Position numbers and translations under genes: made by a program
Notes under the pieces: model-generated
Seen by the model: the letters and a program-made list of their open reading frames with translations, nothing else
Database searches by the model: none
Told to the model about the DNA's origin: nothing
Virus record (IMG/VR): IMGVR_UViG_2778261642_000006
DNA: 42,980 nucleotides
From: a virus
Lineage: Duplodnaviria; Heunggongvirae; Uroviricota; Caudoviricetes
Direction: 5' to 3' (one strand)
Shown: piece after piece, positions 2,686 through 19,692 of the stretch
Layout: each line of letters starts with the position of its first letter
How positions within the stretch are numbered: the stretch's first letter is position 1

Positions 2686-2802
2686 CGCAAAGTCTCCGCA
2701 ATTACACGCAAGAAAAAGCCGCATTGATGCGGCGATGGTAGGTCTGGATATCATTGAGCAATGAACAGGCCTCACCGAGTGTGAGGCGGTGTTATTTCAT
2801 GG

Positions 2803-3147
2803 TTAGTCCTTGCGTAGCTCGCTGATTCTTCTGTAAGTCTCTGGTGCTTTGTTCCCGTACGTCTTCATTTCAGACTTCAACAGAGCAACGAGTGAATCCC
2901 ATTCGTTGAGGATTCCTTTGAATGCCGGAACGCGCTTTGCAACCTTGTCGAATGAATCTCTGATTTCTGGAATATGCTCAACAAGTGCAACGCATCGCCG
3001 GAAGTCTGCTGCGTCATGTGGAGCGCCGAAGTGATGACCATAGATATTCTTTTTCAGTCCACATGCGATTGAGGCAAGAGTTGCGCTACTGATGCCAACA
3101 TCGCCAGTCGATTGCCATTTCAAAACCTTCATAGCCAAATCTGACAT
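2803..3147 (-). CDS. Hypothetical protein (early-left accessory gene)
   Basis: 114-aa ORF with GGAG-type RBS, located just downstream of a minus-strand terminator hairpin. Confidence 0.55.
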   Translation of the reverse strand: MSDLAMKVLKWQSTGDVGISSATLASIACGLKKNIYGHHFGAPHDAADFRRCVALVEHIPEIRDSFDKVAKRVPAFKGILNEWDSLVALLKSEMKTYGNKAPETYRRISELRKD

Positions 3148-3160
3148 TTCTTGTCTCCAA

Positions 3161-3182
3161 TAAAAAAACCGCCATCAGGCGG
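3161..3182 (-). terminator. Intrinsic terminator (CCGCC-tgat-GGCGG + U-tract) in the early-left operon
   Basis: Forward strand reads aaaaaaaccgccatcaggcgg; on the minus strand this is a GC stem followed by TTTTTTTA. Confidence 0.6.
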
Positions 3183-3248
3183 CTTGGTGTTCTTTCAGTT
3201 CTTCAATTCGAATATTGGTTACATTGTTTTCATATATGAATAAATAAA

Positions 3249-3428
3249 TTAGCTTTTTTCGTTGCCTTCGCGTTCTTTATTAATTTTGACAAACTCGTTT
3301 TTACCACGCTCTCCAAATGCGTCTTTAGAGTCGTTGTATCCGCAATCGCAGCACACATAATCATCAGACCATCCACGCATTGTTTTTTCTTTTGCAATAT
3401 TTCCAGAACCGCATTTTGGACAAGACAT
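3249..3428 (-). CDS. Small zinc-ribbon protein (CPKC…CCDC)
   Basis: 59 aa from MSCPKCGSGN…; two Cys pairs; GGAGG RBS 7 nt upstream of the ATG. Confidence 0.5.
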   Translation of the reverse strand: MSCPKCGSGNIAKEKTMRGWSDDYVCCDCGYNDSKDAFGERGKNEFVKINKEREGNEKS

Positions 3429-3524
3429 ATCACTACCTCCAAAGCATGAGTGAGATGACAACGTAACATTGATTGGAGATTAACAATAGATTGCTGATGT
3501 AAAAGATATGTATAAGCTTCGCTA

Positions 3525-4151
3525 TCAAAGTGGAGGCTCTGGTAGCGGCATCCAGTACAAGGCGTTCCCTAACCACGATAAAGTGCCGTCGCTCAACTCC
3601 ACGTATTCCCCTTGTACCTGTCCTGCCATATACTCGCCGTGCTTTGAATAAATTAAAATCCAATCATCTTGAGCGGGCATTCGCTCACTACAGCTTATCC
3701 AACCATCCGGAGTTACCGGAGAGTTGCCGGGTTCTTTAATGTGCAATCGAGGCTCACCATCTTTTGGTTCAGGCCACTGGCGCTCCATGTTGATCTTCAA
3801 TTTATTTTCCATTGCAGCGGTAATTTCAGCATCACTGATACCAGCACGGCGCTGTGCATCCCACAACAGAAACTGCATATCAGCCCACTCGCTAAGATCG
3901 TCTGGTTCGGCTGCGGCTTCCAGTGCCTCTTTTGAGAGGTGTTTCAGTGGACCAATGGGGCCAACGCAGCCAAATGTGGAGTCAGACCATTTGGCATGCT
4001 CGTGGCGAATCTGTTCGCGTTCCAGTGATGCCAGTGCAATTCGTGCCAGTTCTTCCGCTTCTTCTGCTGGCAGTACAACGTTGCTACCAGGTCCGTATGT
4101 TTCGCGCCACTGCTTGATTGTCAGCAGTCGATCTTTGGTAATAGTGGTCAT
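3525..4151 (-). CDS. Putative MazG-like dNTP pyrophosphohydrolase with C-terminal DUF551-like domain
   Basis: 208 aa; N-terminal region resembles phage dATP/dGTP pyrophosphohydrolase, C-terminus (…DGWISCSERMPAQDDWILIYSKHGEY…YWMPLPEPP) resembles DUF551; recalled family assignment. Confidence 0.6.
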   Translation of the reverse strand: MTTITKDRLLTIKQWRETYGPGSNVVLPAEEAEELARIALASLEREQIRHEHAKWSDSTFGCVGPIGPLKHLSKEALEAAAEPDDLSEWADMQFLLWDAQRRAGISDAEITAAMENKLKINMERQWPEPKDGEPRLHIKEPGNSPVTPDGWISCSERMPAQDDWILIYSKHGEYMAGQVQGEYVELSDGTLSWLGNALYWMPLPEPPL

Positions 4152-4153
4152 AG

Positions 4154-4345
4154 CTATTTCACCTTAATCTCAACATTTCGCAGCTTTAGCTCCACTGGCA
4201 GGTCTGACTTTCCGGTTAAAGCTAATGCGAGATTTTCTGGAGTAATGAGAGCTGTTATTGTTTTCCCCATCGCCAGACGAATAATCATTCGTATCTCGCA
4301 ATCGTCACATGCTCCCGGTCGAACAATTGATATTTGTCCGTTCAT
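4154..4345 (-). CDS. Hypothetical small protein
   Basis: 63-aa ORF tightly packed between neighbouring genes (stop 3 nt from the next start). Confidence 0.45.
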   Translation of the reverse strand: MNGQISIVRPGACDDCEIRMIIRLAMGKTITALITPENLALALTGKSDLPVELKLRNVEIKVK

Positions 4346-4346
4346 C

Positions 4347-4799
4347 TCACTTCCCCTTCACACCAATGTTGGCGGCGGCGCGCTCGGCTTCACTTTGTTC
4401 CCAAAACCACTTGTGAAGCGCCATAAGCTTTTCGTCAATCGGTGCATATTTGCGATTAAAGTAGGCCTGAGCATCTTTCTCAGATTCGTCCGGTAATTCG
4501 CCAGGGCCAAACAGTGTGTTATAAATCCATGCCAGTCCGCTTTTAGCGTCGCCAGTCGATTGCCATTCGATAATGGCAGCCTGCATGACCAGAATGTTTT
4601 TCCCGATTAATAGGTCCAGTTCTTTGTACCTGTTGCGGATGTATGCATTCTCGCTTTGTAATTCAGCGTTTCGCTTCTCTGCTGCTTCTATCTCATCCAG
4701 CAGCGCGTTAGCTTCATACTCTCTCAACACCACTGTGTCGAAGCTTTCGGCCTGCTTTTTGATTTTTGCAATCAGCGCCTGTTTGTTGATGTTGCTCAT
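4347..4799 (-). CDS. Ea22-like coiled-coil protein
   Basis: 150 aa from MSNINKQ…; GGAG RBS; start overlaps upstream stop as ATGA; coiled-coil composition typical of lambdoid Ea22-like proteins. Confidence 0.55.
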   Translation of the reverse strand: MSNINKQALIAKIKKQAESFDTVVLREYEANALLDEIEAAEKRNAELQSENAYIRNRYKELDLLIGKNILVMQAAIIEWQSTGDAKSGLAWIYNTLFGPGELPDESEKDAQAYFNRKYAPIDEKLMALHKWFWEQSEAERAAANIGVKGK

Positions 4800-5113
4800 T
4801 TGGCGGACTCCTGTGCTCCAAGTTTTGCCCATACTTCAAGGCTGTTATGCGAAATCAGCGCTTCGCGAACGCATGGCCTGTAGTAGTGATGGAAAGCGAA
4901 GGTCATGCCGATCTTTGTCGGGCGATTGTGTTTGCCAAGCAATCCCAGGCGAATACAGATAGTCGTTGCCGTGTAGCCAGAGTGATAGCCAGCAGCACGC
5001 TTCATGACTGTTTCTGCCAGAATGGTGCGGAAATCAGTGCGCCCGAAATTGGTACCTTCGAAAGCGGCGTTAACCACTTCGTCTGTAAGATGTGAATCAT
5101 CAACTATGCTCAT
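4796..5113 (-). CDS. Hypothetical protein
   Basis: 105 aa from [14 protein letters not shown]…; RBS GGGGGAAG; ATGA overlaps on both sides. Confidence 0.5.
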   Translation of the reverse strand: MSIVDDSHLTDEVVNAAFEGTNFGRTDFRTILAETVMKRAAGYHSGYTATTICIRLGLLGKHNRPTKIGMTFAFHHYYRPCVREALISHNSLEVWAKLGAQESAK

Positions 5114-5637
5114 ACCGCTTCCCCCTGACGAAGCTGGGCGGCGAACTCGTCGCATACGTGCGTTAAAGAGCAAATCTGGATAGCAGGATGCTCGCGCAAC
5201 AATTCAACACCCTGCGCCCGTACTTCAGCCAGGAAAGCATCGGTGGCCGGAGTTTCAGGAATCCGTCTCCTCATCAGTTCTATTGCATGATTGAACCCGA
5301 AATCTTCAGCAAGAGATACGTCATCCATATTGTCATTGTCGTCCTCAATATCCCGTGGTTCTGGAATTGCAGACTTTATTACCGCATTCTCCGCCGCTAG
5401 CGCCGAAAACTTCTCGTGTGCCAACTTAACAGCCGCATCAGCCTGCTTAATTGACTCAATCGCTTTCTGGTGGTCTTCGGACAGAGCCGAAATCTTGGCC
5501 TCCGCTTCAGCAAATTTACGCACCAGATATTCAGCGTTTGTTTCGTTAACCTTTAAATCTCGCGGGATGCATTTACCTTTCAGAAATCCATCCATCTCAA
5601 TTAGTGACATTTGTTTCATTTCTTCCCACTCCGCCAC
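5110..5637 (-). CDS. Ea22-like coiled-coil protein (start uncertain)
   Basis: 175-aa ORF; acidic coiled-coil sequence; several candidate start Mets near 5637. Confidence 0.5.
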
Positions 5638-5798
5638 ATCGCATTCAGATATTTGTTGTCATTAACAGAGCCGAAACTATTTCTCTTAAGCAATTCCTCT
5701 CTCGATGGCATTGGCTTTACGCGTTGGCGAATAATCATTTCTGCCGGAAGAATGCCGGGATTGTATGCAAGTCCTCTCATGGTAAATTCCTCAGTCAT
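5616..5798 (-). CDS. Hypothetical small protein
   Basis: 60 aa from [15 protein letters not shown]…; start overlaps the stop of the upstream gene. Confidence 0.35.
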
Positions 5799-6084
5799 TA
5801 CTGATAGCGCCATAGCGTGAGCGGTAATTACGCAGGCGCGGGTCAATTTCAGGGAAGTGGGTATATGTGGCTTTGCGGAATGGTCGGATTGATGTCTGGT
5901 AAATTCGCTCGCGTTCTTCTTTCTCTGCAAGCCATATACAATGGCGAAATTCCTTTTCCTCTTTCGTTTCCTGCGGTAGCGACATTATCCGGTCGTAGTT
6001 TTTCCTGAATTTATCCAGCACCTCCGATACGGAATTGCCGGAACAGCGGCGCGCGTCATCCGCACCATACAGAGGCGCTGGCAT
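5791..6084 (-). CDS. Hypothetical protein
   Basis: 97-aa ORF with AGGAG RBS 7 nt upstream. Confidence 0.5.
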
Positions 6085-6097
6085 GATTTTCTCCTGA

Positions 6098-6604
6098 TTA
6101 AATAGCGTGAATAGCGTGACGAGGGAAGGGGAGAGTTACTGGTGCAAAGGGTATATCGTCGTCAAAATCCATCGGAGGTTCGTTGTGTTGTGCTGGTGAT
6201 GATTGCTGCTGTGGCTTCTGTGATTGCCTGCTGGCTGCTTGTTGTTTGCTGTCGCCAATGCCGCCAAGCATTTGCATCACGCCATTAATTCCGACATGAA
6301 CCTCGGTTGTGTAACGGTCTTGCCCTGACTGGTCTTTCCACTTTCTGGTTCTCAGCATTCCCTCGAAATAAATCTGATCACCTTTTTTCACATACTGCCC
6401 CACGACCTCAGCCAGTTTCCCGGATACAGCAACACGATGCCATTCAGTCAATTCCTTTTGCTCGCCAGTATTTTTATCTCGCCATTGTTCTGATGTGGCT
6501 ATTGTCAGGTTAGCGAACGCTGTTCCTGATGGTGAGTATCGAACTTCCGGGTCTTGTCCTACCCGACCAAGGATTATCACCTTATTTATCCCGCGAGAAC
6601 TCAT
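6098..6604 (-). CDS. ssb: Single-stranded DNA-binding protein
   Basis: [44 protein letters not shown]… OB-fold; Gln/Pro-rich tail ending DDDIPF; RBS GAGGTGGAG. Confidence 0.9.
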
Positions 6605-7068
6605 TTGCTCCACCTCTTGCCAGTTTTTATGTTGCTTATAATTGATTGAGATACACCCATGTCTTTTGCTATCTTGTACTGACTCTCTTTTTCAGAGAGT
6701 CTTTTCCTAATTTCTATAACCTGCCACTCTGTTAATTTTGCACCATGATGAGCATGACCTTTCTTGGCTCCACGATGCCTTCCTTTTGCTATCTTGTCGT
6801 CCATGTTTTCTTGCGCGCTACCTAAAAAGAGATGTTCAGGATTAACGCAGCATGGGTTATCGCATTTGTGGCAAACCATCTTCCCAGATGGAATGGGGGA
6901 GTGATAAAGCTCAAAAGCAACCCGATGAGAAAGCATTGTTACGCCAAAGGCTACAAATTTTGTGTATCCTCCTTTGTTTTTTGAATAGGTAGACTCCCAG
7001 CAACCTGTTGTTTCATTAACTTTGTAGCTGGACTCGAATCTTTTAATAATTCCGTCCAAGTGAGACAT
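6601..7068 (-). CDS. HNH endonuclease
   Basis: 155 aa; Cys/His-rich HNH-like core (…[26 protein letters not shown]…); sits between recombinase and ssb. Confidence 0.75.
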
Positions 7069-7776
7069 TTATGCCGCCTGTTTTAGTTCGTTAACTCTGA
7101 TGTTCATTACCTGAACGCATTTAGCCTGCGCCTCCTCGTTGCCAGCCATTAATTGCCAGTCACGCTGATAACGCTCGATGAGTTTTTTCTTGTCAGTTTC
7201 TGTTGACGCATAATCGCTGAAGTCTTTCAGGATTTGCTCGCAGTCAACCGATGGAGATTTCTGGTTGGTATTTTCTGGTGATGGTTTGTTATCTGATGCT
7301 GGCATTGCCCATCCCGGCAGCGATGGAGGGGACCAGTAAAATCCTGTTCCATCTTTCAGTTTTGCCCTGTGCCATCCCTGCTTTTTATCGAGAGATGTTT
7401 GTGCGAAACCTTCCTCAAGGTTATACAGATACCGACCGATTCCCCACTGAACGGCAGCACGCTTCATTGCACCGGAACGACCACCTTTGACGGCTTCTAC
7501 CTGCGTGTTTTCAGCAGCATCCCATTTGGTTACCCATTCGGAATCAATCTTGATTGATATGCCGCATTCAACTCCGCCGTTGTTGGGAATATCGCGGTAT
7601 TCATTGCGCCATCCTGCTTTGCCGCAAACATCGTCCAGGCGTTTCATGATTGCCCTGTTCGTGACATAAGCCAGCACCATAGCCCACACTTTTCCATCGC
7701 GTGTTTTACCGCTTTGCTGTATTCGCCATTCGATATCTTCAGGGCTGAATGGCTCGTCGAATTTATTCAAATTCAT
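7069..7776 (-). CDS. Rad52/Rad22-family single-strand annealing recombinase (Sak-like)
   Basis: 235 aa; …KRAAVQWGIGRYLY… motif typical of phage Rad52-like annealing proteins; occupies the bet position. Confidence 0.75.
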   Translation of the reverse strand: MNLNKFDEPFSPEDIEWRIQQSGKTRDGKVWAMVLAYVTNRAIMKRLDDVCGKAGWRNEYRDIPNNGGVECGISIKIDSEWVTKWDAAENTQVEAVKGGRSGAMKRAAVQWGIGRYLYNLEEGFAQTSLDKKQGWHRAKLKDGTGFYWSPPSLPGWAMPASDNKPSPENTNQKSPSVDCEQILKDFSDYASTETDKKKLIERYQRDWQLMAGNEEAQAKCVQVMNIRVNELKQAA

Positions 7777-7875
7777 AATTCACCTCAGAATGGACATGGC
7801 CCAAGGAAATAACGCTGATTTAATACTTCGACTCGGGACAAATTAAGGCATACCAGCATTCCTTCGCGGTCGCCA

Positions 7876-8034
7876 TTATGGCGATACAAGAGAGCTTTCT
7901 GCGTGTACATGCGTCTCTGTAACTTGCTCTCCTTCACTGTGGTTGCAAGTGACATGAATATCTCCTTCGTTACCGATTAATTCTTTCATCTGACGAATGA
8001 ATTCTTCGTCTGACCAGTTATCTGTAAAACTCAT
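7876..8034 (-). CDS. Hypothetical small protein at the kil position
   Basis: 52 aa from MSFTDNWSDEEF…; start overlaps the cIII-like stop (ATGA); position only. Confidence 0.4.
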   Translation of the reverse strand: MSFTDNWSDEEFIRQMKELIGNEGDIHVTCNHSEGEQVTETHVHAESSLVSP

Positions 8035-8201
8035 GGACGGCCTTGTTGTTTCAAAATATCCCAAAGCTTTTCGAGCAAACTTTTCATTCTTGGTTGTTTA
8101 AAGTCTGCTCCGGTTAAAATATTTTTTCGTGAATGCTGTACCGATAAAATCGGGTTGAAAGGGCGAACCGATGCCGCCCCTGCAATAGCGAACTGTTGCA
8201 T
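8031..8201 (-). CDS. cIII: cIII-like protein (putative FtsH inhibitor)
   Basis: Hand-translated 56-aa ORF MQQFAIAGAASVRPFNPILSVQHSRKNILTGADFKQPRMKSLLEKLWDILKQQGRP with GGAG RBS; resembles recalled lambda CIII (MQYAIAG…LIDILNQPG); under 60 aa so absent from the ORF track. Confidence 0.65.
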   Translation of the reverse strand: MQQFAIAGAASVRPFNPILSVQHSRKNILTGADFKQPRMKSLLEKLWDILKQQGRP

Positions 8202-8415
8202 AGGATGCTCCTTCTGTTTGATTGCATAACGAAAAACGCCTCGAGTGAAGCGTTATTGGTATGCATATAAAAAGGCCCTCACACTGGAGGGCAAAGAAGA
8301 TTTCCAATAATCAGAACAAGTCGGCTCCTGTTTAGTTACGAGCGACATTGCTCCGTGTATTCACTCGTTGGAATGAATACACAGTGCAGTGTTTATTAGT
8401 ATGCCTGTCTTTTAA

Positions 8416-8997
<582 letters not shown>

Positions 8998-9085
8998 GTG
9001 ATATAGATTTACCTTTAATTTTCTGGCGTCCTCTGCATGTTATGCCGCGTTCGCCAGGCTTGCGGTAGTAAATTCGGTTATTTAT

Positions 9086-9111
9086 GTAATAAAAACCCGC
9101 CTTAGCGGGTT
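9086..9111 (-). terminator. Intrinsic terminator after the first pL gene (tL1-like), possibly bidirectional
   Basis: AACCCGC-ctta-GCGGGTT hairpin; minus strand continues TTTTTATTAC; plus strand continues with a weaker T-rich tract. Confidence 0.65.
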
Positions 9112-9112
9112 A

Positions 9113-9556
9113 TTATTTCTTTGGATTTAGCTTTTCCATGTTCTCTGCGATCGTACCTATTCTTGACCTTATTGTTGGAACATCAATTCCTCTCTGTATG
9201 TCTACATTTAAAGACATAAGCTCTCTGCTCCATCCTGCGATCGCATCGTGAAATTGTCTTGCCCTGCTTGCTTGTCTACGTCTGCTGCTTTCAAGCTCTG
9301 TAAGCATTTGCTTTGCTTCGATCTGAGACTTGCCTTGCCCAACTCCCAATGCATCGATTGCACATTGCTTCATCTCTGCTTTTATCAAAGGGTGAAGATT
9401 TTCAGCGCCAATAAAAATTACCTCGTCTATGCTTTTAAAAAGCAGAAGGCAATCAGTAACAACTTTGGTTCTTTTATCATCACACCTTACCTCTACCGAA
9501 GGTACGCCGCCATATTGCTTAACTCTCATTGCCGTGTAAACTGTAGCACTCTTCAA
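9113..9556 (-). CDS. Hypothetical protein at the N/Nun position (not N-like)
   Basis: 147-aa ORF starting at TTG with AGGAGG RBS 5 nt upstream (or ATG 9 codons in); first gene after the pL leader; no arginine-rich N-terminal motif. Confidence 0.55.
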   Translation of the reverse strand: MKSATVYTAMRVKQYGGVPSVEVRCDDKRTKVVTDCLLLFKSIDEVIFIGAENLHPLIKAEMKQCAIDALGVGQGKSQIEAKQMLTELESSRRRQASRARQFHDAIAGWSRELMSLNVDIQRGIDVPTIRSRIGTIAENMEKLNPKK

Positions 9557-9644
9557 ATCAGCCTCCTTTTTCTTTTTCTATATCAAAAAGCTGCTTTGCT
9601 TTTTGTGACTAAAAGCAAAAAAGCCTTCTCGCTAATGAGCAGCA

Positions 9645-9706
9645 TTGCCGTTCATCCTGAACCCGCCGCGCTCCCGACGCATGGTTTAAAGACGCGCCGT
9701 TCGTCT
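9645..9706 (-). promoter_or_regulatory. Conserved leader element L (candidate nutL/put-like antitermination site)
   Basis: Minus-strand GAACGGCGCG…GCGTCGGGAGCGCGGCGGGTTCAGGATGAACGGCAATG aligns with the element after cro; followed by a stem-loop before the first pL gene. Confidence 0.45.
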
Positions 9707-9720
9707 ATGGGTTTATGATG

Positions 9721-9808
9721 TACTTAAAGTTCATTAATGTAAAGTACCAATAGTACATTTTATGGATATAAAAAGCTCACTACATCATAAGTTAGTGAAC
9801 TTTAAGGA
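9721..9808. promoter_or_regulatory. Putative OL operators / pL promoter region
   Basis: Partial copies of the OR half-site (…TTAAAGTTCA…, …ATAAGTTAGTGAACTTTAAG…) between cI and the pL leader. Confidence 0.35.
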
Positions 9809-9817
9809 AATTTATTT

Positions 9818-10525
9818 TTATCCGAATCGCTTGTAATCGATTGACTGCCTAATGAGGACTTTGGCTAGAATGTGAAGTTGCTCTTCTTCACCTTCTTCTA
9901 TGTACCATCGATCATAAGCGGCATTGTCAGAGATGACGGCAAGCCTGTTCTTTTGCATTTGCAGGCGCTTAACGTGCATTGTTTTCCCGTATACAAACAC
10001 ATAAATGCCATCGCCATCAAAACAGGTTATGGATACATCAACAAAGATCTCATCTCCCGGATTGATGGTTCCCTCCATGCTGTCACCGCGAACCGTGATG
10101 ACTTTTACGCTTTCCTGTGGCCTTCCATTAAATAAAATTCTTGCCTGCTCGGTCGTATATTCAATTGCTCTTATCTTTTCTATAAATTCATTGGAAACCA
10201 TGGTTCCTGGCCCGGCGCTCGCCTGAACATCCAATACATCAACACGATAATAATCATTTGATCTTGATAGATGATTTACCGTGATACCGTCATCATCAGC
10301 ATAGCCATGCAGATATGCAGCAGTAGTTCCCAGCACCGAAGCCAGAGATTCCATCTTGTCTTTTCTTGGTATTGACTCCCCGTTGAACCATTTACTAATG
10401 GCTTTTGGTGTGACCTTAAGCCTGACAGCTAAATCAGCCTGCCTACCATGCAAAGGTAATCCCGCTTTATCACAGGCCAGCGCAAGCCTCTGCGAGAAAG
10501 TTTCACGCTCTTTCTGTTGAACCAT
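9818..10525 (-). CDS. cI: CI-type repressor (HTH_XRE + S24/LexA-like peptidase domain)
   Basis: HTH region (…QADLAVRLKVTPKAISKWFNGESIPRKDKMESLASVLG…) and C-terminal S24 motifs (GDSMEGT…HVKRL); divergent from cro across operators; start ambiguous (in-frame ATGs near 10525, 10570, 10582). Confidence 0.8.
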   Translation of the reverse strand: MVQQKERETFSQRLALACDKAGLPLHGRQADLAVRLKVTPKAISKWFNGESIPRKDKMESLASVLGTTAAYLHGYADDDGITVNHLSRSNDYYRVDVLDVQASAGPGTMVSNEFIEKIRAIEYTTEQARILFNGRPQESVKVITVRGDSMEGTINPGDEIFVDVSITCFDGDGIYVFVYGKTMHVKRLQMQKNRLAVISDNAAYDRWYIEEGEEEQLHILAKVLIRQSIDYKRFG

Positions 10526-10589
10526 AAGTTCAACTATATTAGGTATTGACTGTACTATCAGTTCCGTCATAATATGAACCATAAGTTCA
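10517..10589. promoter_or_regulatory. OR operator region: two near-perfect 17-bp palindromes plus a degenerate middle site; pR/pRM
   Basis: TTGAACCATAAGTTCAA (~10517..10533) and ATGAACCATAAGTTCAC (~10575..10589) with TTGACTGTACTATCAGTTC between; lies between cI and cro. Confidence 0.6.
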
Positions 10590-10604
10590 CCACAGGAGAG
10601 AAGC

Positions 10605-10835
10605 ATGAACGAAGTTACGTTTGGAGAAGTTATCAAATCCGTTCGAGTTTCTGTTGTGGCTGATGTTTGTGGACTTACGCCAAAAGCCATCTATAAGTGG
10701 CTTGAGCGTGGTTCTCTGCCGCGTACCGAGTTCACTGGTGAAACCGAATATGCGGATAAGATCGCCAAGGCATCAGGCGGCAAGTACTCAGCAGCACAGA
10801 TTCGCCGTATCGGTAAACAGCAGTTTGTTATGTAA
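10605..10835 (+). CDS. cro: Cro-like repressor
   Basis: 76 aa; HTH (…VADVCGLTPKAIYKWLERGSL…); GGAGAG RBS; divergent to cI directly downstream of operators. Confidence 0.8.
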   Translation: MNEVTFGEVIKSVRVSVVADVCGLTPKAIYKWLERGSLPRTEFTGETEYADKIAKASGGKYSAAQIRRIGKQQFVM

Positions 10836-10856
10836 TAAAAATGTACTTTTAGTACC

Positions 10857-10912
10857 GAACGGCCCGGTATACGGTCGGGTGCCCGGCGTGGTCAAGGATG
10901 ACTGTCAATGGT
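10857..10912 (+). promoter_or_regulatory. Conserved leader element R (candidate nutR/put-like site)
   Basis: GAACGGCCCGGTATACGGTCGGGTGCCCGGCGTGGTCAAGGATGACTGTCAATG; ~75% identical in blocks to element L. Confidence 0.45.
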
Positions 10913-10956
10913 GCACGATAAAAACCCAAATTATTTACCTATGGAGATAGTAAGAA

Positions 10957-11256
10957 ATGACACAAGCAAGCTACAGCAAGCCAACACAGCGAGAAATTGA
11001 TCGCGCAGAAACAGATTTACTCATCAACCTGTCAACGCTTACCCAGCGCGGTCTGGCAAATATGATTGGCTGTCATGAATCGAAGATAAGCAGAACGGAC
11101 TGGAGATTTATTGCTTCGGTCTTGTGTGCTTTCGGAATGGCATCAGACATCAGTCCGATTAGCAGGGCTTTTAAGTATGCGCTTGATGGACTCACCAATA
11201 AAAAACGCCCGGTGTGCAAGACCGAGCGTTCTGATCAAATACAAATGGAATTTTAA
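10957..11256 (+). CDS. cII: CII transcriptional activator
   Basis: 99 aa; C-terminus …LTNKKRPVCKTERSDQIQMEF matches recalled lambda CII …LTNKKRPAATERSEQIQMEF. Confidence 0.9.
   Translation: MTQASYSKPTQREIDRAETDLLINLSTLTQRGLANMIGCHESKISRTDWRFIASVLCAFGMASDISPISRAFKYALDGLTNKKRPVCKTERSDQIQMEF
11198..11229 (-). terminator. OOP-like antisense RNA terminator (to) within the cII 3' end
   Basis: Minus strand reads CGCTCGG-tcttgcaca-CCGGGCG followed by TTTTTTATT, the same position as lambda to/oop. Confidence 0.5.
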
Positions 11257-11278
11257 CAACATCCAGCGAGGTAATTAT

Positions 11279-11551
11279 ATGCGAAACAAAGGCTTTAATC
11301 CACCTGATACACACAAAGAAGTTAAGCGTTTGCGCTTCCTTCGTTCCATTGATGAAAGAACTCAAATCTCTTTTGTGAAAGTTGCCAGAACTGAGCTTCT
11401 GAAGGCTGAGGCGAGGGCGTTGCTCCCGTCTCTACCAAAAGAGGAGGGATATAGGCTCATTCCAAACGCATTTCTGGAAAAGCTGCTCAAAGAAGACATA
11501 TCCGTAAGTCAGTTTAACGATGTTCTTAAGGTCTTTCGTCAAGGCAGGTAG
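11279..11551 (+). CDS. Hypothetical protein between cII and the replication initiator
   Basis: 90 aa from MRNKGFNPPDTHKEVKRLRFL…; the longer track ORF (from 11111) overlaps cII. Confidence 0.45.
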   Translation: MRNKGFNPPDTHKEVKRLRFLRSIDERTQISFVKVARTELLKAEARALLPSLPKEEGYRLIPNAFLEKLLKEDISVSQFNDVLKVFRQGR

Positions 11552-11553
11552 TT

Positions 11554-12501
11554 ATGAGCAATACAGCAAAAATCTACGATTTCAGCGCCGCACACGAGCG
11601 CAGGAGCAACAGGATGGAGAACCAGAAAACTGGTTACATTCCGTTGTACCGGAGCATTCTGAAACAGTCATGGGCGAAAGATGTTTATCTTCGCACCCTG
11701 TGGGAAAACCTTCTCCTGAATGCCGCCAGAAAGCCATACAAAGCGAATTTCAAAGGTCATGAATGGCATCTGCAACCCGGTCAACTGGTTGTGACAGCAG
11801 CTGATTTAGGTCTTCAGTTATGCGACAGGCATGGCAAGCCGGCAAGCCGTGATCAGGTTGAGCGGATGCTTCAGGTTTTTGTGAAAGAGGGGATGATCTC
11901 CATTGATGGAGAGAAGCAAAAAGGTCGTGTGATCACCATCACAAATTACCATGAATATGCTCAAAAAATGGACGATTCACCCGCACATGAAGCCGCACAA
12001 ACAACCGCACATGATGCCGCACATGATGAAGCCAGTAATGGCGCGGCATTCAGCGTACATGCCGCACATGAAAGCGCACATGAAGCCGCACAAACAACCG
12101 CACATCATGAACAAGAAGGTATTAACAAGAATATAAATAATACCCCCCTACCCCCCAATGGGGGAGGCGATGGGCAGGTTAAACCTGAACGTCGCAAGGC
12201 AGAACGCATCGACTACGAATCCTTCCTGAACGCCTACAACACCGAAGTCGGTGACAGACTTCCACACGCTGTTGCGGTCAACGAGAAACGCAAACGCCGC
12301 CTGAAGAAAATCATCCCGCAACTGAAAACGCCAAACGTGGACGGTTTCAGAGCGTATGTCAGGGCGTTTGTGCATCAGGCCAAGCCGTTTTACTTCGGAG
12401 ACAACGACACGGGCTGGGTGGCAGATTTTGATTACCTGCTGAGGGAGGATTCGTTAACGGGAGTTCGGGAAGGGAAGTTTGCAGACAGGGGGATTGCATG
12501 A
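11554..12501 (+). CDS. Replication initiator (lambda O / P22 gene 18 analogue)
   Basis: 315 aa; position after cII; contains the iteron array and its repeated [10 protein letters not shown] peptide; stop overlaps helicase start (ATGA). Confidence 0.75.
11975..12165. repeat. Putative origin of replication: CCGCACATGA-type iterons, AT-rich tract, C6/G5 inverted repeat
   Basis: At least 8 copies of (C)CGCACATGA(A/T)G within ~130 bp, then aagaatataaataata and cccccctaccccccaatggggga. Confidence 0.6.
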
Positions 12502-13874
12502 AACAGGATATCGAAGCGAGCGTTATCGGTGGCCTGCTGATTGGTGGATTAACACCAATTGCCAGTGACGTTCTGGCAACGCTTGAGCCGGAAGCGTTTT
12601 CAATTCCGCTCTACCGGAAAGCCTTCGAGGTTATCCGCAAGCAGGCGCGAAACAGAAATTTAATCGACGCGCTGATGGTTGCCGAGGCGTGCGGAGAGGA
12701 ACATTTCACGTCAATCCTGATGACCAGCAAAAACTGCCCGAGTGCCGCAAACCTGAAGGGATATGCCGGAATGGTCGCGGATAATTATCACCGCCGTCTG
12801 GTGCTGGAAATCATGGATGAAATGCGTGAACCAATTCAGAGCGGAACCATCGACGCATCGAGTCAGGCGATGGATGAACTTGTAAAGCGTCTTTCAGCCA
12901 TCAGAAAGCCCCGTGACGAGGTTAAACCTGTACGGTTAGGGGAAATCATCACTGACTACACTGACACGCTTGACAGGCGTCTGAGGAACGGAAAAGAGTC
13001 AGATACCCTGAAGACCGGAATCGAAGAACTTGACGCCATCACCGGAGGGATGAACGCAGAAGACCTGGTGATAATCGCCGCTCGTCCTGGTATGGGGAAA
13101 ACCGAGCTGGCGCTGAAGATTGCCGAAGGCGTTGCAAGCCGTGTTATTCCTGGTTCTGACGTCCGGCGCGGAGTATTGATTTTCTCGATGGAAATGAGCG
13201 CATTGCAGATTGCAGAGCGAAGCATCGCCAACGCCGGGAGGATGTCGGTTAGCGTGCTGCGAAATCCTGCATCGATGGATGACGAAGGCTGGGCGCGCGT
13301 TGCTAACGGCATGAGTCAGCTTGCAGATTTGGATGTATGGGTGGTCGATGCCTCGCGGTTATCGGTCGAAGAAATACGCTCAATCGCAGAACGGCACAAA
13401 CAGGAAAATCCAAACCTCTCACTCATCATGGCGGATTATCTTGGCCTGATTGAGAAGCCGAAAGCAGACCGCAACGACCTCGCAATTGCTCACATCTCCG
13501 GAAGCCTGAAGGCGATGGCGAAAGACCTGAAAACGCCTGTTATCTCCCTGAGTCAGCTTTCGCGCGATGTTGAGAAGCGACCAAACAAACGCCCGACAAA
13601 CGCAGATTTGCGTGATTCAGGAAGCATTGAACAGGACGCAGACTCAATCATCATGCTCTATCGGGAAGCAGTATATGACGAGAACAGTAGCGCCGCGCCA
13701 TTTGCTGAAATCATTGTGACAAAAAACCGTTTTGGCTCACTTGGTACGGTTTACCAGCGGTTCTGCAACGGACACTTTGTTGCATGTGACCAGGATGAAG
13801 CCAGACAGATTTGCACAGCATCAAATGCACCTGCTGCGCGTGGCAGACGATATGCACAAGGGGCTGACGTATGA
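12498..13874 (+). CDS. Replicative DNA helicase, DnaB-like
   Basis: 458 aa; Walker A ([12 protein letters not shown]) and DnaB-family motifs (…[17 protein letters not shown]…[13 protein letters not shown]…). Confidence 0.9.
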
Positions 13875-13900
13875 CCATCTACATCACTGAGCTAATAACA

Positions 13901-13930
13901 GGCCTGCTGGTAATCGCAGGCCTTTTTATT
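13901..13930 (+). terminator. Intrinsic terminator after the helicase (tR2-like)
   Basis: GGCCTGC-tggtaatc-GCAGGCC followed by TTTTTATTT. Confidence 0.7.
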
Positions 13931-13946
13931 TGGGGGAGAGTAAATC

Positions 13947-14153
13947 GTGGTTGAGTTGATTTTTTCTGCATTGAGGATTCTCGGTGCTATGTGGATGGTG
14001 GCGACGTTCATTGTGGTTGCCAGCAGTTTTGTCCGGCTGGTAGGCGAAGGTAAAGACCTGGTTGGTGTGCTTTTCGGTAGCATTTTCCTGTGGGTGATTA
14101 TCGGTGTTGCGCCTGTAGCTGTAGCAAAAATGGCGTGGCGTTTTGTGAGTTGA
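13947..14153 (+). CDS. Small two-helix membrane protein
   Basis: 68 aa, GTG start after GGGGGAGAG RBS; two hydrophobic segments. Confidence 0.4.
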   Translation: MVELIFSALRILGAMWMVATFIVVASSFVRLVGEGKDLVGVLFGSIFLWVIIGVAPVAVAKMAWRFVS

Positions 14154-14170
14154 ACTGAGGGTAAGTATCG

Positions 14171-14437
14171 ATGGACGAATCAAGAAAGCAGTTTGAAGAA
14201 TGGTTTAAAAACAAATATCACGTTTCAAGTGACGTGATGAAGATTATGCACATCAAGGTCGAGATTGCATGGGAGGCATGGCAGGCATCGCGAGCAGCTA
14301 TTGAAATTGAGCTGCAAAAGCCAAAGAAAGGCCCACTTCCCGGTGATTATCACATTGGCTATGACTCAGGTGCAGAATCACAATACGAAAGCGATGTAGA
14401 GGCCATCCGCGCTGCTGGGGTTAAAGTGAAGGAGTGA
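14171..14437 (+). CDS. Hypothetical protein
   Basis: 88-aa ORF in the nin region. Confidence 0.5.
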   Translation: MDESRKQFEEWFKNKYHVSSDVMKIMHIKVEIAWEAWQASRAAIEIELQKPKKGPLPGDYHIGYDSGAESQYESDVEAIRAAGVKVKE

Positions 14438-14439
14438 GT

Positions 14440-14646
14440 ATGACAAATCAGCAGCAAATAGAGTTCATCCTTGAGCAGATCCGAAAAATGCGAGAAAAGA
14501 ACCAGCCAGACATGATGGAAATATGGAGACGCCAGCAGGAAGAATACCGCAAGCATATTTTTGGTGAGAGAAAACAGGATGACTGGAGCCTATATGGCTA
14601 TGGCACCAGGACAAATAAAAACGGATATAGCCTTTACACATATTGA
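14440..14646 (+). CDS. Hypothetical protein
   Basis: 68 aa from MTNQQQIEFILEQ…; AGGAG RBS. Confidence 0.45.
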   Translation: MTNQQQIEFILEQIRKMREKNQPDMMEIWRRQQEEYRKHIFGERKQDDWSLYGYGTRTNKNGYSLYTY

Positions 14647-14654
14647 GGAATTCC

Positions 14655-15065
14655 ATGAAACAGACAATTTTCCTCAGGAGTAAGCAACAACAGCAAGCCG
14701 CAATCAACGCCATCCTCGCAACACCACTCGATAAAGACAAGCCAGTTACCATCCGCATTACTGACTACAAGCGCAACCTTGACCAGAACGCAAAATTTCA
14801 CGCGATGCTGGCGGATATCGCAAGTCAGGTTCAATGGTGCGGCAAATGGTTAAAACCAGAACAATGGAAGGTTTTGTTGATAAGCGGTCATGCAGTGGCT
14901 ACAAAGCAGGAAGCTGATGTTTTGCCCGGGCTTGAAGGCGAATACGTCAACATTCGCGAAAGCAGCGCGCAGATGAGTGTGAAGCGTATGGCAAGTCTGA
15001 TTGAGTACACGACAGCCTGGGCTATTGGTCAGGGTGTCAGATTTACCGACAGGAGGTATGAATGA
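14655..15065 (+). CDS. ninB: NinB recombination protein
   Basis: 136 aa from [11 protein letters not shown]…; …[27 protein letters not shown]… matches recalled lambda NinB pattern. Confidence 0.8.
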
Positions 15066-15238
15066 GGCGACAGCGACGAAGTTTCACCGACATCATCTGC
15101 GAAAACTGCAAATACCTTCCAACGAAACGCTCCAGAAATAAACGCAAGCCAATCCCAAAAGAATCTGACGTAAAAACCTTCAACTACACGGCTCACCTGT
15201 GGGATATCCGGTGGCTAAGACATCGTGCGAGGAAATGA
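15062..15238 (+). CDS. ninE: NinE
   Basis: Hand-translated 58 aa [58 protein letters not shown], near-identical to recalled lambda NinE; ATGA overlaps on both sides. Confidence 0.75.
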
Positions 15239-16224
15239 CGATGACTGCGTATTACAACGAAATAGATCCGTATGCAGCGCAATGGCTGCGTAACTTAATT
15301 GACGCTGGAGAAATTGCCCCCGGTTATGTAGATGAAAGGAGTATTGAAGATGTCACACCAGGTGATTTGCGAGGATTTACCCAGCACCACTTTTTTGCAG
15401 GAATCGGAGTTTGGAGCTATGCACTTAGAAAAGCAGGATGGCCAGACAACAAGAGTATCTGGACAGGAAGTTGCCCATGCCAACCTTTCAGCTCGGCAGG
15501 CAAAGGAAAAGGGGTTGATGACGAGCGGCACTTATGGCCGGCATTCTTCTGGCTTATTGAAAAATGCAATCCTGGCATCGTTATTGGCGAACAGGTTGCA
15601 AGCGCAGACGGCCTCGCTTGGCTCGACCTTGTACAAACTGACTTGGAAGGTGCGAACTACACCTCTGCAGGTACCGATATTTGCGCTGCGGGCTTCGGTT
15701 CTCCGCACATCAGGCAGCGATTGTATTGGGTGGCCTACTCCAACGACAAATATCAACTTTCAGCCAGAGACGCGCAGGGGAATTCAGAACCTATCTGGAT
15801 GCGTGAGACTAGCGGGATGGCAAACTCCTTTAGCGAACGATGCAACAGGTTCAACGCATTGCTACAGCGGAAAAGACAAGAGCGGAACCCCAAGAATCTG
15901 CTTGAAACTTCCCGGGACGGTGAAGCTATGTACCCATTACCGGTTAACGGCTTCTGGAGAGATGCAGACTGGCTTTACTGTAGAGATGAAAAATATCGTC
16001 CAGTTAGACCCGGCTCATTCCCGATGGTTAATGGCATTGCCAAAAGCTTGGGACGAGGCAAGTCCACACTGGGAAGAATGGCAAAGCGCAATCAAGATCA
16101 GCGAATTATTGGATATGGAAACGCAATCAATGCAGAAGTAGCAACGGCATTCGTGAAAGTTTGTATGGAGGTTGTTAATGCTTATCCCATCCCAATCCAT
16201 TCAATACCAGAAAGAAAGCGTTGA
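15235..16224 (+). CDS. DNA (cytosine-5)-methyltransferase, orphan
   Basis: Motif [12 protein letters not shown], catalytic PCQ ([16 protein letters not shown]), ENV-like region; no restriction endonuclease partner seen. Confidence 0.85.
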
Positions 16225-16354
16225 GCGGGCTTTAACGTGCGCTAACTGCGGTCAGAAGCTGCATGTGCTGGAAGTTCACGTGTGCTCCGATTGCTGCGCA
16301 GAACTGATGAGCGATCCGAATAGCTCGATGCACGAGGAAGAAGACGATGGCTAA
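16178..16354 (+). CDS. ninF: NinF
   Basis: 58 aa [66 protein letters not shown]; matches recalled lambda NinF. Confidence 0.75.
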   Translation: MLIPSQSIQYQKESVERALTCANCGQKLHVLEVHVCSDCCAELMSDPNSSMHEEEDDG

Positions 16355-16913
16355 ACCAGCGCGAAGACGATGTAACCGTAAAAGAGAAGATTTAACTGTT
16401 AAAAGGATATTTGAGTTACTAAGTTTCGATAAATCTACCGGGGTATTTAGATGGAAAGTTCCCACTCAGGGAAGGATAGCATTAAATAGTGTTGCTGGAA
16501 CTTTTGATTCCAACGGTTATTCAATGATCATGATAGATGGGCGTAGATATAAAACTCACATCTTAGTTTTTTACATAACTCATAATCGCTGGCCTGCTGG
16601 TCAAATTGACCACGTTAATGGAATTAGGACCGACAATAGGCCAGAAAATTTAAGAGAATGCCTGCCAATAGAAAATTCAAGAAATATAAGGATCCGAAAG
16701 AACAGCAAATCAGGTTGCAGAGGAGTTACTTGGCACAAACGACAGAAAAAATGGAATGTTAGGCTAGGTTTCCATGGCAAGAGTAAACACTTCGGATGCT
16801 TTGATGATCTGGAGTTAGCGGTACTAGTTGCTGAAGAAGCCCGAGATAAGTATTACGGTGATTTTTCCGGCAACGAAAGGAGCACTTATGCGAATCTATC
16901 GAAGGAAATGTAA
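16347..16913 (+). CDS. HNH endonuclease with AP2-like DNA-binding domain, apparently inserted at the ninG 5' end
   Basis: Begins MAKPARRRC (recalled NinG N-terminus) then HNH motifs (…[18 protein letters not shown]…) and AP2-like segment (…[31 protein letters not shown]…). Confidence 0.75.
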
Positions 16914-17490
16914 ATGTTGCAATGAATGGTTTATACCAAAATATCAAAATCAATATTGGTGTAATGAGATTTGTGGAACCAAGATAGCACTCGAACGACG
17001 AAGTAAAGAACGCGAAAAAGCGGAAAAAGCAGCAGAGAAGAAACTACGACGAGAGGAGCAGAAACAGAAAGATAAACTGAAGATTCGAAAACTCGCCTTA
17101 AAGCCCCGCAGTTACTGGATTAAACAAGCACAACAAGCCGTAAACGCCTTCATCAGAGAAAGAGACCGCGACTTACCATGTATCTCGTGCGGAACGCTCA
17201 CGTCTGCTCAGTGGGATGCCGGACATTACCGGACAACTGCTGCGGCACCTCAACTCCGATTTGATGAACGCAATATTCACAAGCAATGCGTGGTGTGCAA
17301 CCAGCACAAAAGCGGAAATCTCGTTCCGTATCGCGTCGAACTGATTAACCGCATCGGGCAGGAAGCAGTAGACGAAATCGAATCAAACCATAGCCGCCAT
17401 CGCTGGACTATCGAAGAGTGCAAGGCGATCAAGGCAGAGTACCAACAGAAACTCAAAGACCTGCGAAATAGCAGAAGTGAGGCCGCATGA
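16888..17490 (+). CDS. ninG: NinG (Rap-like recombination protein), N-terminus replaced
   Basis: From [15 protein letters not shown]…; from …[24 protein letters not shown]… onward matches recalled lambda NinG; AAGGAG RBS inside the HNH gene 3' end. Confidence 0.75.
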
Positions 17491-19687: not shown

Positions 19688-19692
19688 AATAT

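What the first reader, a model, noticed from the sequence alone, without database searches (positions are those of the whole stretch)
10517..10589. Operator palindromes and ambiguous cI start
Two near-identical 17-bp palindromes (TTGAACCATAAGTTCAA, ATGAACCATAAGTTCAC) flank a degenerate middle site, like OR3-OR2-OR1. The first in-frame ATG upstream of the HTH (~10525) lies at the centre of the cro-distal palindrome; other in-frame ATGs (~10570, ~10582) would put operators inside the coding region. The true start and promoter geometry are therefore unclear.
Basis: seen in the sequence. Interest (0 to 1): 0.4.

Follow-up and report, generated by a model that had tools for sequence, protein, structure and literature searches.

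The report
Phage HK022 right operator and cI start
This is the long-known right operator (OR3-OR2-OR1) of coliphage HK022's immunity region, and the repressor gene starts at the ATG in the middle of OR3, very probably on a leaderless message, so the "ambiguous start" is only apparent.

Summary
An exact 15-bp repeat, TGAACCATAAGTTCA, lies at 10518-10532 and 10575-10589 and flanks a degenerate copy at 10551-10565. In-frame ATGs lie at 10525, 10570 and 10582.

The segment is 99.9% identical to the phage HK022 immunity region. In GenBank X16093 (1989) these three sites are already annotated as oR sites, and cI starts at the ATG inside OR3 (235 aa).

Comparison of 58 distinct related operator regions resolves the start:
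- The ATG at the dyad centre of OR3 is invariant, even in relatives whose operators use different half-sites (TAAC/GTTA, GTAC/GTAC).
- The upstream ATGs are by-products of the PR -10 hexamer (CATAAT) and of the OR1 centre. They are lost in several lineages, or cut off from the start by an in-frame stop.
- The 45-66 nt upstream show no codon periodicity.
- A TAxxxT -10 hexamer sits at a fixed 7 nt before the ATG, and no candidate start has a Shine-Dalgarno sequence. This fits a leaderless PRM transcript, as in lambda.
- A published clone that begins 21 nt upstream of this ATG makes functional repressor.

Compared with lambda, OR3 sits on +1 of PRM and OR2 covers its -35 region.

Verdict: already known, low interest.

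The parts
10518..10532 (.). OR3: TGAACCATAAGTTCA. Its dyad centre (10525) is the A of the cI ATG. It overlaps the predicted +1 of PRM and directly abuts its -10 hexamer.
   Evidence: Annotated oR site in X16093 (3000-3014, offset +7518). Exact repeat of OR1. The half-sites covary with the HTH in relatives.
10551..10565 (.). OR2: TGTACTATCAGTTCC, the degenerate middle operator. It lies in the PR spacer, and its centre carries the PRM -35-like hexamer.
   Evidence: Annotated oR site in X16093 (3033-3047). Exact match to TGWAC-N5-GTWCM. Conserved at -32 in relatives.
10575..10589 (.). OR1: TGAACCATAAGTTCA. It lies immediately downstream of the PR -10 and covers the predicted PR start.
   Evidence: Annotated oR site in X16093 (3057-3071).
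10546..10573 (+). PR promoter: -35 TTGACT (10546-10551), 16-bp spacer, -10 CATAAT (10568-10573). The reverse complement of the -10 creates the in-frame ATG at 10570.
   Evidence: Promoter scan, 10 of 12 matches. Same hexamers annotated in X16093, O276 and HK75.
10533..10538 (-). PRM (PM) -10 hexamer TATAGT, 7 nt upstream of the cI ATG.
   Evidence: Promoter scan. TAxxxT is fixed at -13..-8 in 83% of 58 distinct relatives, a sharp positional peak. The segment is labelled 'PM-10' in the supplement of PMC8053113.
10556..10561 (-). PRM -35-like hexamer CTGATA (4 of 6 matches, 17-bp spacer), lying in the centre of OR2. This assignment is inferred.
   Evidence: Promoter scan. The OR2 centre is CTGATA or CTGAAA in 48 of 48 distinct GAAC-type relatives, whereas the OR1 site shows 13 variants across its centre and right half-site.
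9818..10525 (-). cI repressor gene, 235 aa, N-terminal HTH plus C-terminal S24 (LexA-like) self-cleavage domain. Codons 1-3 (ATG GTT CAA) form the centre and right half of OR3.
   Evidence: Pfam PF01381 and PF00717. CDS limits in X16093, AF069308, HK75, O276 and RefSeq.
10605..10835 (+). cro gene (76 aa) with a Shine-Dalgarno sequence (GGAGAG).
   Evidence: Annotated cro. Anti-SD duplex of -7.4 kcal/mol.
9719..9733 (.). OL1: TGTACTTAAAGTTCA, between the PL -35 (9738-9743) and -10 (9715-9720).
   Evidence: X16093 oL site and pL hexamers.
9743..9757 (.). OL2: AGTACCAATAGTACA.
   Evidence: X16093 oL site. One mismatch to the consensus.
9796..9810 (.). Candidate OL3: TGAACTTTAAGGAAA, an inverted partial copy of OL1, 53 bp centre-to-centre from OL2.
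   Evidence: Inverted repeat I1. PMC8053113 mentions 53 bp between OL2 and OL3. The HK75 record places oL3 elsewhere, so the position is uncertain.
10842..10856 (.). OFR: TGTACTTTTAGTACC, an extra repressor site just downstream of cro.
   Evidence: Exact consensus match. The HK75 record annotates OFR at the equivalent position. PMC8053113 cites a CI operator about 300 bp downstream of OR that is involved in immunity.

Best explanation
The segment is the right operator and promoter region of the phage HK022 immunity module, carried here by a mosaic P22-like prophage or phage.

Three repressor sites of consensus TG(A/T)AC-N5-GT(A/T)C(A/C) lie between the divergent genes cI and cro. OR1 and OR2 bracket the -10 hexamer of PR (TTGACT-16-CATAAT), so repressor bound to them, 24 bp apart as in lambda, shuts off cro and lytic transcription.

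cI starts at the ATG at 10525, which lies exactly on the dyad of OR3. The maintenance promoter has its -10 hexamer TATAGT at 10538-10533, 7 nt upstream. Transcription therefore most probably begins at or 1 nt before the A of the ATG, giving a leaderless cI mRNA as at lambda PRM. Repressor (or Cro) bound to OR3 sits on +1 next to the -10 and shuts PRM off, which is negative autoregulation.

The other in-frame ATGs are accidents of regulatory sequence. The ATG at 10570 is the reverse complement of the PR -10 CATAAT. The ATG at 10582 is the same CAT centre in OR1, which duplicates OR3.

Shown here: the identity with HK022, the site positions, conservation of the start, the non-coding evolution of the extension, and the lack of a Shine-Dalgarno sequence.

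Inferred: the exact 5' end, the -35 assignment, and who binds where at what concentration.
For: Identity: 99.9% over 1385 nt to HK022 (X16093.1, AF069308.1). The oR sites, pR hexamers, cI and cro are annotated at exactly these positions.

Protein families: HTH_3 plus Peptidase_S24 for cI, and Phage_CII downstream.

Operators:
- An exact 15-nt repeat.
- All exact consensus matches cluster in the immunity region.
- In relatives with a different HTH, the three sites change half-site together: GAAC/GTTC, TAAC/GTTA, GTAC/GTAC. One copy stays centred on the ATG.

Start codon:
- The ATG is invariant in 48 of 48 distinct GAAC-type OR3 sites, while the two centre bases before it take 8 different dinucleotides. 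The same ATG appears in only 1 of 48 distinct OR1 sequences.
- The -15 ATG is absent in several lineages, the -19 ATG occurs only in HK022-like phages, and the TAAC type has a stop 2 codons upstream.
- Entropy by codon position is 0.39/0.44/0.50 upstream against 0.39/0.17/1.34 in the HTH block.

Leaderless message:
- A minus-strand promoter-like site, CTGATA-17-TATAGT.
- TAxxxT at -13..-8 in 83% of 58 relatives, a single sharp peak.
- Anti-SD duplex energy is 0.4 kcal/mol at 10525 and at best -2.8 for any cI candidate, against -6.4 to -9.4 for cro, cII, O and P.

Function: a clone that begins 21 nt upstream of this ATG ('PM-10' marked) yields CI that loops HK022 OL and OR in vivo.

Annotation: RefSeq PGAP aa.
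Against: No 5'-end or N-terminal protein data could be read here. The primary papers (Oberto 1989, Cam 1991, Carlson and Little 1993) are not in the library.

The minus-strand frame is open for 55 codons upstream, and most automatic calls of homologues are 250 or 254 aa.

The A of the ATG is the 8th base after the -10 hexamer, not the modal 7th, so a 1-nt leader is equally possible.

The -35-like hexamer is weak and lies inside OR2 (centre at -33). It is therefore unclear how PRM fires when OR2 is occupied.

On the antisense PRE transcript the upstream AUGs are present, and they could give some extended protein.
Confidence: 0.88

Rival explanations
1. The repressor is really a longer protein (250, 254 or 290 aa) that starts at an upstream in-frame ATG (10570, 10582 or 10690). 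The operators and PR would then lie inside its coding region.
For: The frame is open for 55 codons upstream. Gene callers assign 250 or 254 aa to most homologues, and the extension looks conserved as peptide, MTEL[IK]V[QH].... A weak GGTG lies 4 nt before ATG 10582, at -2.8 kcal/mol.
Against: The apparent peptide conservation is just OR2 plus the PR -35 and -10 read in frame, with no excess variation at codon position 3 (0.39/0.44/0.50 against 0.39/0.17/1.34 in real coding sequence).

The -15 ATG is lost in L011, L014, L019 and L134-L145, among others. The -19 ATG is confined to HK022-like phages. A stop lies 2 codons upstream in TAAC-type relatives and 6-13 codons upstream in most GTAC-type relatives.

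A clone lacking these ATGs gives functional CI. All curated records use 10525.
Confidence: 0.04
2. There are two isoforms. The maintenance transcript from PRM gives the 235-aa leaderless product. The establishment transcript from PRE (antisense through cro) also initiates at 10582 or 10570, giving N-terminally extended repressor with altered DNA binding.
For: pE is annotated at window 10947-10975 on the minus strand, so its transcript carries all the upstream in-frame AUGs. ATG 10525 has no Shine-Dalgarno sequence to favour it on a leadered RNA, and 10582 has the best, though weak, one.
Against: The upstream starts are not conserved and show no coding signature, so any such product would be incidental rather than selected.

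A leadered vector transcript carrying only ATG 10525 and its native 21-nt upstream sequence is translated well enough to give function.
Confidence: 0.07
3. The palindromes are not repressor sites. They would be chance inverted repeats or binding sites for another factor.
For: Nothing specific. No binding assay could be run here.
Against: An exact 15-nt repeat. Enrichment over shuffles and clustering at PL, PR, PRM and after cro. The half-sites change in step with the repressor HTH in relatives. The sites are annotated as repressor sites in HK022 and HK75 records. HK022 CI loops OL-OR DNA in vivo.
Confidence: 0.01

Closest known systems
Phage HK022 immunity region (oR1-oR2-oR3, pR, PM, cI, cro; GenBank X16093.1 and AF069308.1; Oberto, Weisberg and Gottesman 1989, J Mol Biol 207:675)
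   Same: The sequence is 99.9% identical over 1385 nt, and identical across the whole cI-cro intergenic region as far as compared, 85 nt upstream of the cI ATG. The operators, PR hexamers, cI start and cro start coincide base for base with the annotation.
   Different: Only the genomic context differs. Left of about 9576 and right of about 10960 the window is not HK022. It is a mosaic most like P22-like coliphages (Kapi1, CUS-3) and an E. coli YP3 prophage. nun is replaced by a 147-aa ORF.
Phage lambda OR/PRM/PR switch with leaderless cI mRNA
   Same: Divergent cI (HTH plus S24) and cro, with three operators between them. OR1 and OR2 are 24 bp apart centre to centre and overlap PR. OR3 controls PRM negatively. 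cI lacks a Shine-Dalgarno sequence, and a -10 hexamer lies 6-7 nt before the ATG, which is the leaderless arrangement. The lambda coordinates come; the leaderless status of lambda cI comes from PMC10491246 (abstract).
   Different: In lambda the OR3 centre is 19 bp upstream of the cI ATG, between the PRM hexamers, and the OR2 centre is at -42. Here the OR3 centre is on the ATG itself and the OR2 centre is at -33, over the -35 region. The OR2-OR3 spacing is 33 bp instead of 23.

OR1 and OR3 have identical 15-bp cores here, whereas the lambda sites all differ. The sites are 15 bp with a 5-bp asymmetric centre, against 17 bp in lambda. There is no sequence similarity between the two sets of operators.
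Phage HK75 and uncharacterised enterobacterial prophage repressors (250-aa 'XRE/LexA family' calls)
   Same: They share the operator architecture: three sites at about -56, -32 and 0 relative to the cI ATG, with the -10 hexamer at -13..-8.
   Different: They are 45-95% identical. Some use other half-sites (TAAC/GTTA, GTAC/GTAC) with a changed HTH. Their database start codons are often placed 15 or 19 codons too far upstream.

Membership tests
HK022 immunity type (imm HK022) | Near-identical cI, cro and operator DNA | tested here: met
   99.9% identity over 1385 nt to X16093.1 and AF069308.1. cI translation is 100% identical by tblastn, and the upstream sequence is identical.
HK022 immunity type (imm HK022) | Operator set OR1-3, OL1-2 and OFR at the annotated positions | tested here: met
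   Positions map with an offset of +7518 onto the X16093 features. Exact consensus matches at 9719, 10518, 10551, 10575 and 10842.
Lambdoid tripartite OR genetic switch | Divergent repressor (HTH plus S24 self-cleaving domain) and cro, with cII downstream | tested here: met
   Pfam PF01381, PF00717 and PF05269; gene order.
Lambdoid tripartite OR genetic switch | Three operators in the cI-cro intergenic region, two of them overlapping PR | tested here: met
   OR2 lies in the PR spacer and OR1 just after the PR -10.
Lambdoid tripartite OR genetic switch | Lambda-like PRM geometry: OR3 between the PRM hexamers and OR2 centred near -42, abutting the -35 | tested here: not met
   The OR3 dyad lies on the ATG and predicted +1. 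The OR2 centre is at -33, over the -35-like hexamer. In lambda the values are -19 and -42.
Lambdoid tripartite OR genetic switch | Repressor actually binds the sites cooperatively and regulates PR and PRM | not testable with these tools
   Only indirect support is available: half-site and HTH covariation, and the published statement that HK022 CI binds cooperatively to adjacent operators and loops OL-OR (PMC8053113).
Leaderless mRNA genes (lambda cI type) | No Shine-Dalgarno sequence upstream of the start | tested here: met
   Anti-SD duplex of +0.4 kcal/mol at ATG 10525, against -6.4 to -9.4 for the neighbouring genes.
Leaderless mRNA genes (lambda cI type) | Promoter -10 hexamer placed so that transcription starts at the A of the AUG | tested here: met
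   TATAGT ends 7 nt before the ATG. TAxxxT is fixed at that offset in 83% of 58 relatives.
Leaderless mRNA genes (lambda cI type) | Mapped 5' end coincides with the start codon | not testable with these tools
   No transcript data are available. Cam et al. 1991 is not held in the library.

The most novel reading that the evidence does not exclude
In this repressor family the -35 element of the maintenance promoter (CTGATA, CTGAAA or CTGACA) is built into the non-contacted centre of OR2, one helical turn closer to the start than in lambda. Repressor on OR2 and sigma region 4 would then have to share the same 15 bp from opposite faces of the helix. The identical OR1 and OR3 sites would be told apart only by their spacing to OR2 (24 against 33 bp). 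That would be a way of coupling repressor occupancy to PRM activity distinct from the lambda -42 contact.
Probability: 0.15. Interest if true: 0.45.

Novelty: already known. Interest (0 to 1): 0.12.

Why it matters
For biology it matters little, because the HK022 operators and cI start have been on record since 1989.

It has some practical value for annotation. Gene callers systematically over-extend this repressor family by 15 or 19 codons: most database entries are 250 or 254 aa, and only some, including several NCBI records, are 235 aa. The cause is that the PR -10 hexamer and the OR1 centre happen to encode in-frame ATGs in an open frame.

The family comparison gives a simple rule for correcting those entries. 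The true start is the ATG on the dyad of the promoter-distal operator, 7 nt after a TAxxxT hexamer.

Tried and rejected
- Primary papers on HK022 promoters and repressor binding (Cam et al. 1991, J Bacteriol 173:734; Carlson and Little 1993, PMC206910) are not held. Full-text searches for HK022 with leaderless, PRM or OR2 found no paper that maps the cI 5' end. One search was wasted on 'OR3' matching olfactory-receptor papers.
- PMC4631060 mentions HK022 and leaderless mRNAs only in unrelated contexts.
- An Rfam scan of 9000-11300 gave only a sub-threshold sRNA hit (STnc370, E = 0.18), so the put RNAs seem to have no Rfam family.
- A first attempt at a periodicity control on the codons immediately after the ATG failed, because too little downstream sequence had been extracted. 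The ungapped 30-codon HTH block was used instead.
- The oL3 coordinates in the HK75 record point to GGTATAAAAAGCTCA, which does not resemble the consensus. I did not adopt them, and I propose 9796-9810 only as a candidate.
- The near-match TGAACATCCAATACA inside cI (10224-10238, one mismatch) was considered as an extra operator. I set it aside as probably chance, since 12.6 such hits are expected in the window.

Full report
**What is in the sequence**

The window between 10500 and 10610 contains TTGAACCATAAGTTCAA at 10517-10533 and ATGAACCATAAGTTCAC at 10574-10590. Their common core, TGAACCATAAGTTCA, is an exact 15-nt direct repeat 57 nt apart. It is the only direct-repeat family in 9600-10900.

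Each copy is an inverted repeat of 5-6 bp arms (TGAAC/GTTCA) around an asymmetric 5-bp centre, CATAA. Between the two lies a degenerate copy, TGTACTATCAGTTCC, at 10551-10565.

TGAAC-N5-GTTCA with up to one mismatch occurs 7 times in the window against 1.8 expected, and 0 of 100 shuffles reach 7. The five exact matches to the looser consensus TGWAC-N5-GTWCM all lie between 9719 and 10856.

On the minus strand an ORF of 290 codons runs from 10690 to 9818. Its in-frame ATGs are at 10690, 10606, 10582, 10570 and 10525.

**What it is**

The stretch 9576-10960 is 99.9% identical to the immunity region of coliphage HK022 (X16093.1, AF069308.1). It is 95% identical to phage HK75.

Features of X16093 map onto the window with an offset of +7518:

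| Feature | X16093 | Window |
|---|---|---|
| cI CDS (minus strand) | 2300-3007 | 9818-10525 |
| oR site (OR3) | 3000-3014 | 10518-10532 |
| oR site (OR2) | 3033-3047 | 10551-10565 |
| oR site (OR1) | 3057-3071 | 10575-10589 |
| pR -35 | 3028-3033 | 10546-10551 |
| pR -10 | 3050-3055 | 10568-10573 |
| cro start | 3087 | 10605 |

The HK75 and O276 records name the sites oR3, oR2 and oR1. They also annotate oL1-3, OFR, putL, putR and pE.

Pfam confirms HTH_3 plus Peptidase_S24 for the repressor and Phage_CII for the gene after cro.

The rest of the window is not HK022. It is a mosaic closest to P22-like coliphages such as Kapi1 and CUS-3. The immunity region is 100% identical to a prophage of E. 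coli YP3.

**The start codon**

All curated records (X16093, AF069308, HK75, O276) and RefSeq PGAP (WP_024226607.1) start cI at the ATG at 10525, giving 235 aa. In the large protein collection, however, most homologues are called as 250 or 254 aa. These correspond to starts at the equivalents of 10570 and 10582, and their N-terminal extensions look conserved, MTEL[IK]V[QH]....

To resolve it I fetched 160 related loci from genomes and viral contigs. With the four phage records already fetched, 98 loci aligned from the cI N-terminus. They gave 76 distinct sequences over 155 nt upstream plus 45 nt of coding sequence, or 58 over -70..+9 among those with an ATG-GT start. Four results follow.

1. 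**Only one start is conserved.** The ATG on the dyad of the promoter-distal operator is present in every relative that shares the N-terminal domain. The -15 ATG is absent in several lineages, including L011, L014, L019 and L134-L145. The -19 ATG occurs only in HK022-like phages. Relatives with TTAAC-type operators have an in-frame TAA two codons upstream. Most GTAC-type relatives have a stop 6-13 codons upstream.

2. **The ATG is constrained beyond its operator role.** In 48 distinct GAAC-type sequences the OR3 centre reads NN-ATG. The two free positions take 8 different dinucleotides, and the ATG is invariant. OR1 as a whole shows 13 variants and carries ATG in only one, the HK022 type. The ATG in OR3 is therefore constrained by something other than operator function, namely its use as the start codon.

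3. **The upstream extension does not evolve as coding sequence.** Column entropy by codon position is 0.39/0.44/0.50 for the 45 nt upstream. It is 0.39/0.17/1.34 for an ungapped 30-codon block of the HTH in the same sequences. The conserved blocks upstream are exactly OR1, the PR -10, OR2 and the PR -35. The apparent peptide TELIVQS is simply OR2 plus TTGACT read in frame.

4. **The upstream ATGs have trivial origins.** The ATG at 10570 is the reverse complement of the PR -10 CATAAT. The ATG at 10582 is the CAT in the centre of OR1, which duplicates OR3.

One published experiment adds independent support. In the 'loopometer' study, HK022 cI was expressed from a clone that begins 21 nt upstream of this ATG (…tacctaata(a)tagttgaacttATGGTTCAACAGAAA…, marked 'PM-10'). 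It produced CI that loops HK022 OL and OR in vivo (PMC8053113). A protein starting at 10525 is therefore functional.

**Promoter geometry**

The consensus scan finds PR as TTGACT-16-CATAAT (10 of 12 matches). It finds one minus-strand site in the operator region, CTGATA (10561-10556)-17-TATAGT (10538-10533).

TATAGT ends 7 nt before the ATG. Across 58 distinct relatives covering all operator types, the hexamer at -13..-8 averages 4.5 of 6 matches to TATAAT. It has A2 and T6 in 83% of them, and no other offset comes close. In the GAAC group, T(-13), A(-12) and T(-8) have near-zero entropy inside an otherwise variable spacer.

No candidate cI start has a Shine-Dalgarno sequence. The anti-SD duplex energy is +0.4 kcal/mol at 10525 and at best -2.8 at 10570 and 10582. 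For cro, cII, O and P it is -6.4 to -9.4.

The simplest reading is a leaderless cI mRNA, or one with a 1-nt leader, from PRM. Lambda is the precedent: its cI mRNA from pRM is leaderless (PMC10491246, abstract). This step is inferred. I could not read the paper that mapped the HK022 promoters.

**How it most likely works**

- Repressor on OR1 and OR2 (centres 24 bp apart, as in lambda) covers the PR spacer, the region just after the -10, and +1. This blocks cro and lytic transcription.
- OR3, whose 15-bp core is identical to that of OR1, is centred on +1 of PRM and abuts its -10. Occupancy by repressor at high concentration, or by Cro, should shut off cI transcription.
- Because the OR1 and OR3 cores are identical, they would be discriminated by context: OR2 is 24 bp from OR1 but 33 bp from OR3. 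This point rests on the geometry and on the published statement that HK022 CI binds cooperatively to adjacent operators. No binding data were available here.

**That the sites are operators**

Covariation supports this. Relatives with a changed HTH carry TAAC-N5-GTTA or GTAC-N5-GTAC at the OR1 position and at the cI ATG, and the TAAC type carries it at the OR2 position as well. One copy is always centred on the cI ATG. In these relatives codons 2-3 of cI change with the half-site, from GTT CAA to GTA CAG or GTT AAA.

**Comparison with lambda**

In lambda, OR3 is centred 19 bp upstream of the cI ATG and OR2 42 bp upstream, with operator spacings of 23 and 24 bp. Here the values are 0 and 33 bp, with spacings of 33 and 24 bp.

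OR2 therefore lies over the -35-like hexamer of PRM instead of beside it. Its centre (CTGATA or CTGAAA; CTGAAA or CTGACA in the TAAC type) is far more conserved than the OR1 centre. Whether OR2-bound repressor activates, tolerates or hinders PRM cannot be decided from sequence.

**Verdict**

The finding rediscovers the HK022 OR region, which was annotated in 1989. The operator interpretation is right, and the 'ambiguous start' is resolved in favour of 10525. Novelty: already known. Interest is low, apart from a practical note that many database entries for this repressor family are over-extended at the N-terminus.

Noticed in passing
window 1-9575 and 10960-25000: The window is not HK022 as a whole. 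Only about 9576-10960 matches HK022 at 99.9%. The flanks are mosaic and closest to P22-like coliphages (Kapi1, CUS-3, 720R6) at 95-97% over parts. The immunity segment 9700-10860 is 100% identical to a prophage in E. coli YP3.
   Followed up: partly
window 9113-9556 (minus strand): HK022 carries nun downstream of PL and putL. This window instead has a 147-aa ORF with no Pfam hit, annotated 'hypothetical protein' in E. coli YP3. Beyond it, YP3 has a fragment annotated as a partial antitermination protein N pseudogene. So an HK022-type, put-RNA immunity module sits next to a remnant of an N-type module.
   Followed up: no
window about 9637-9699 and 10855-10916: The putL and putR antiterminator RNA sites of HK022 fall in the conserved segment, by coordinate transfer from the HK75 and O276 records. 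An Rfam scan found no family for them.
   Followed up: partly
window 9796-9810, against L003 1190-1204: The HK75 GenBank record places oL3 on GGTATAAAAAGCTCA, which does not fit the operator consensus. An inverted partial copy of OL1, TGAACTTTAAGGAAA, lies 53 bp centre-to-centre from OL2. That spacing matches the '53 bp between OL2 and OL3' quoted in PMC8053113. The database annotation of oL3 may be misplaced.
   Followed up: partly
protein collection hits P0001-P0100: Most automatically called homologues of this repressor are 250 or 254 aa, that is 15 or 19 codons too long. Some NCBI entries carry 250 aa as well, for example from Salmonella Lubbock and Pectobacterium parmentieri, and others carry 235 aa.
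   Followed up: yes
L020 and L038 (Rahnella, Citrobacter); L043-L052 (Dryocola, Cedecea, Buttiauxella, Enterobacter): Relatives at 45-55% identity keep the same switch layout but use other operator half-sites (TTAAC/GTTAA and GTAC/GTAC) with altered HTH sequences. The GTAC type seems to lack an OR2 at -32.
   Followed up: partly
window 10568-10590 against 10518-10538: PR and PRM are nearly mirror-symmetric. Each has its -10 hexamer followed, within 0-1 nt, by the same 15-bp operator. Each predicted start (A10581 on the plus strand, A10525 on the minus strand) lies at or next to the operator dyad.
   Followed up: no
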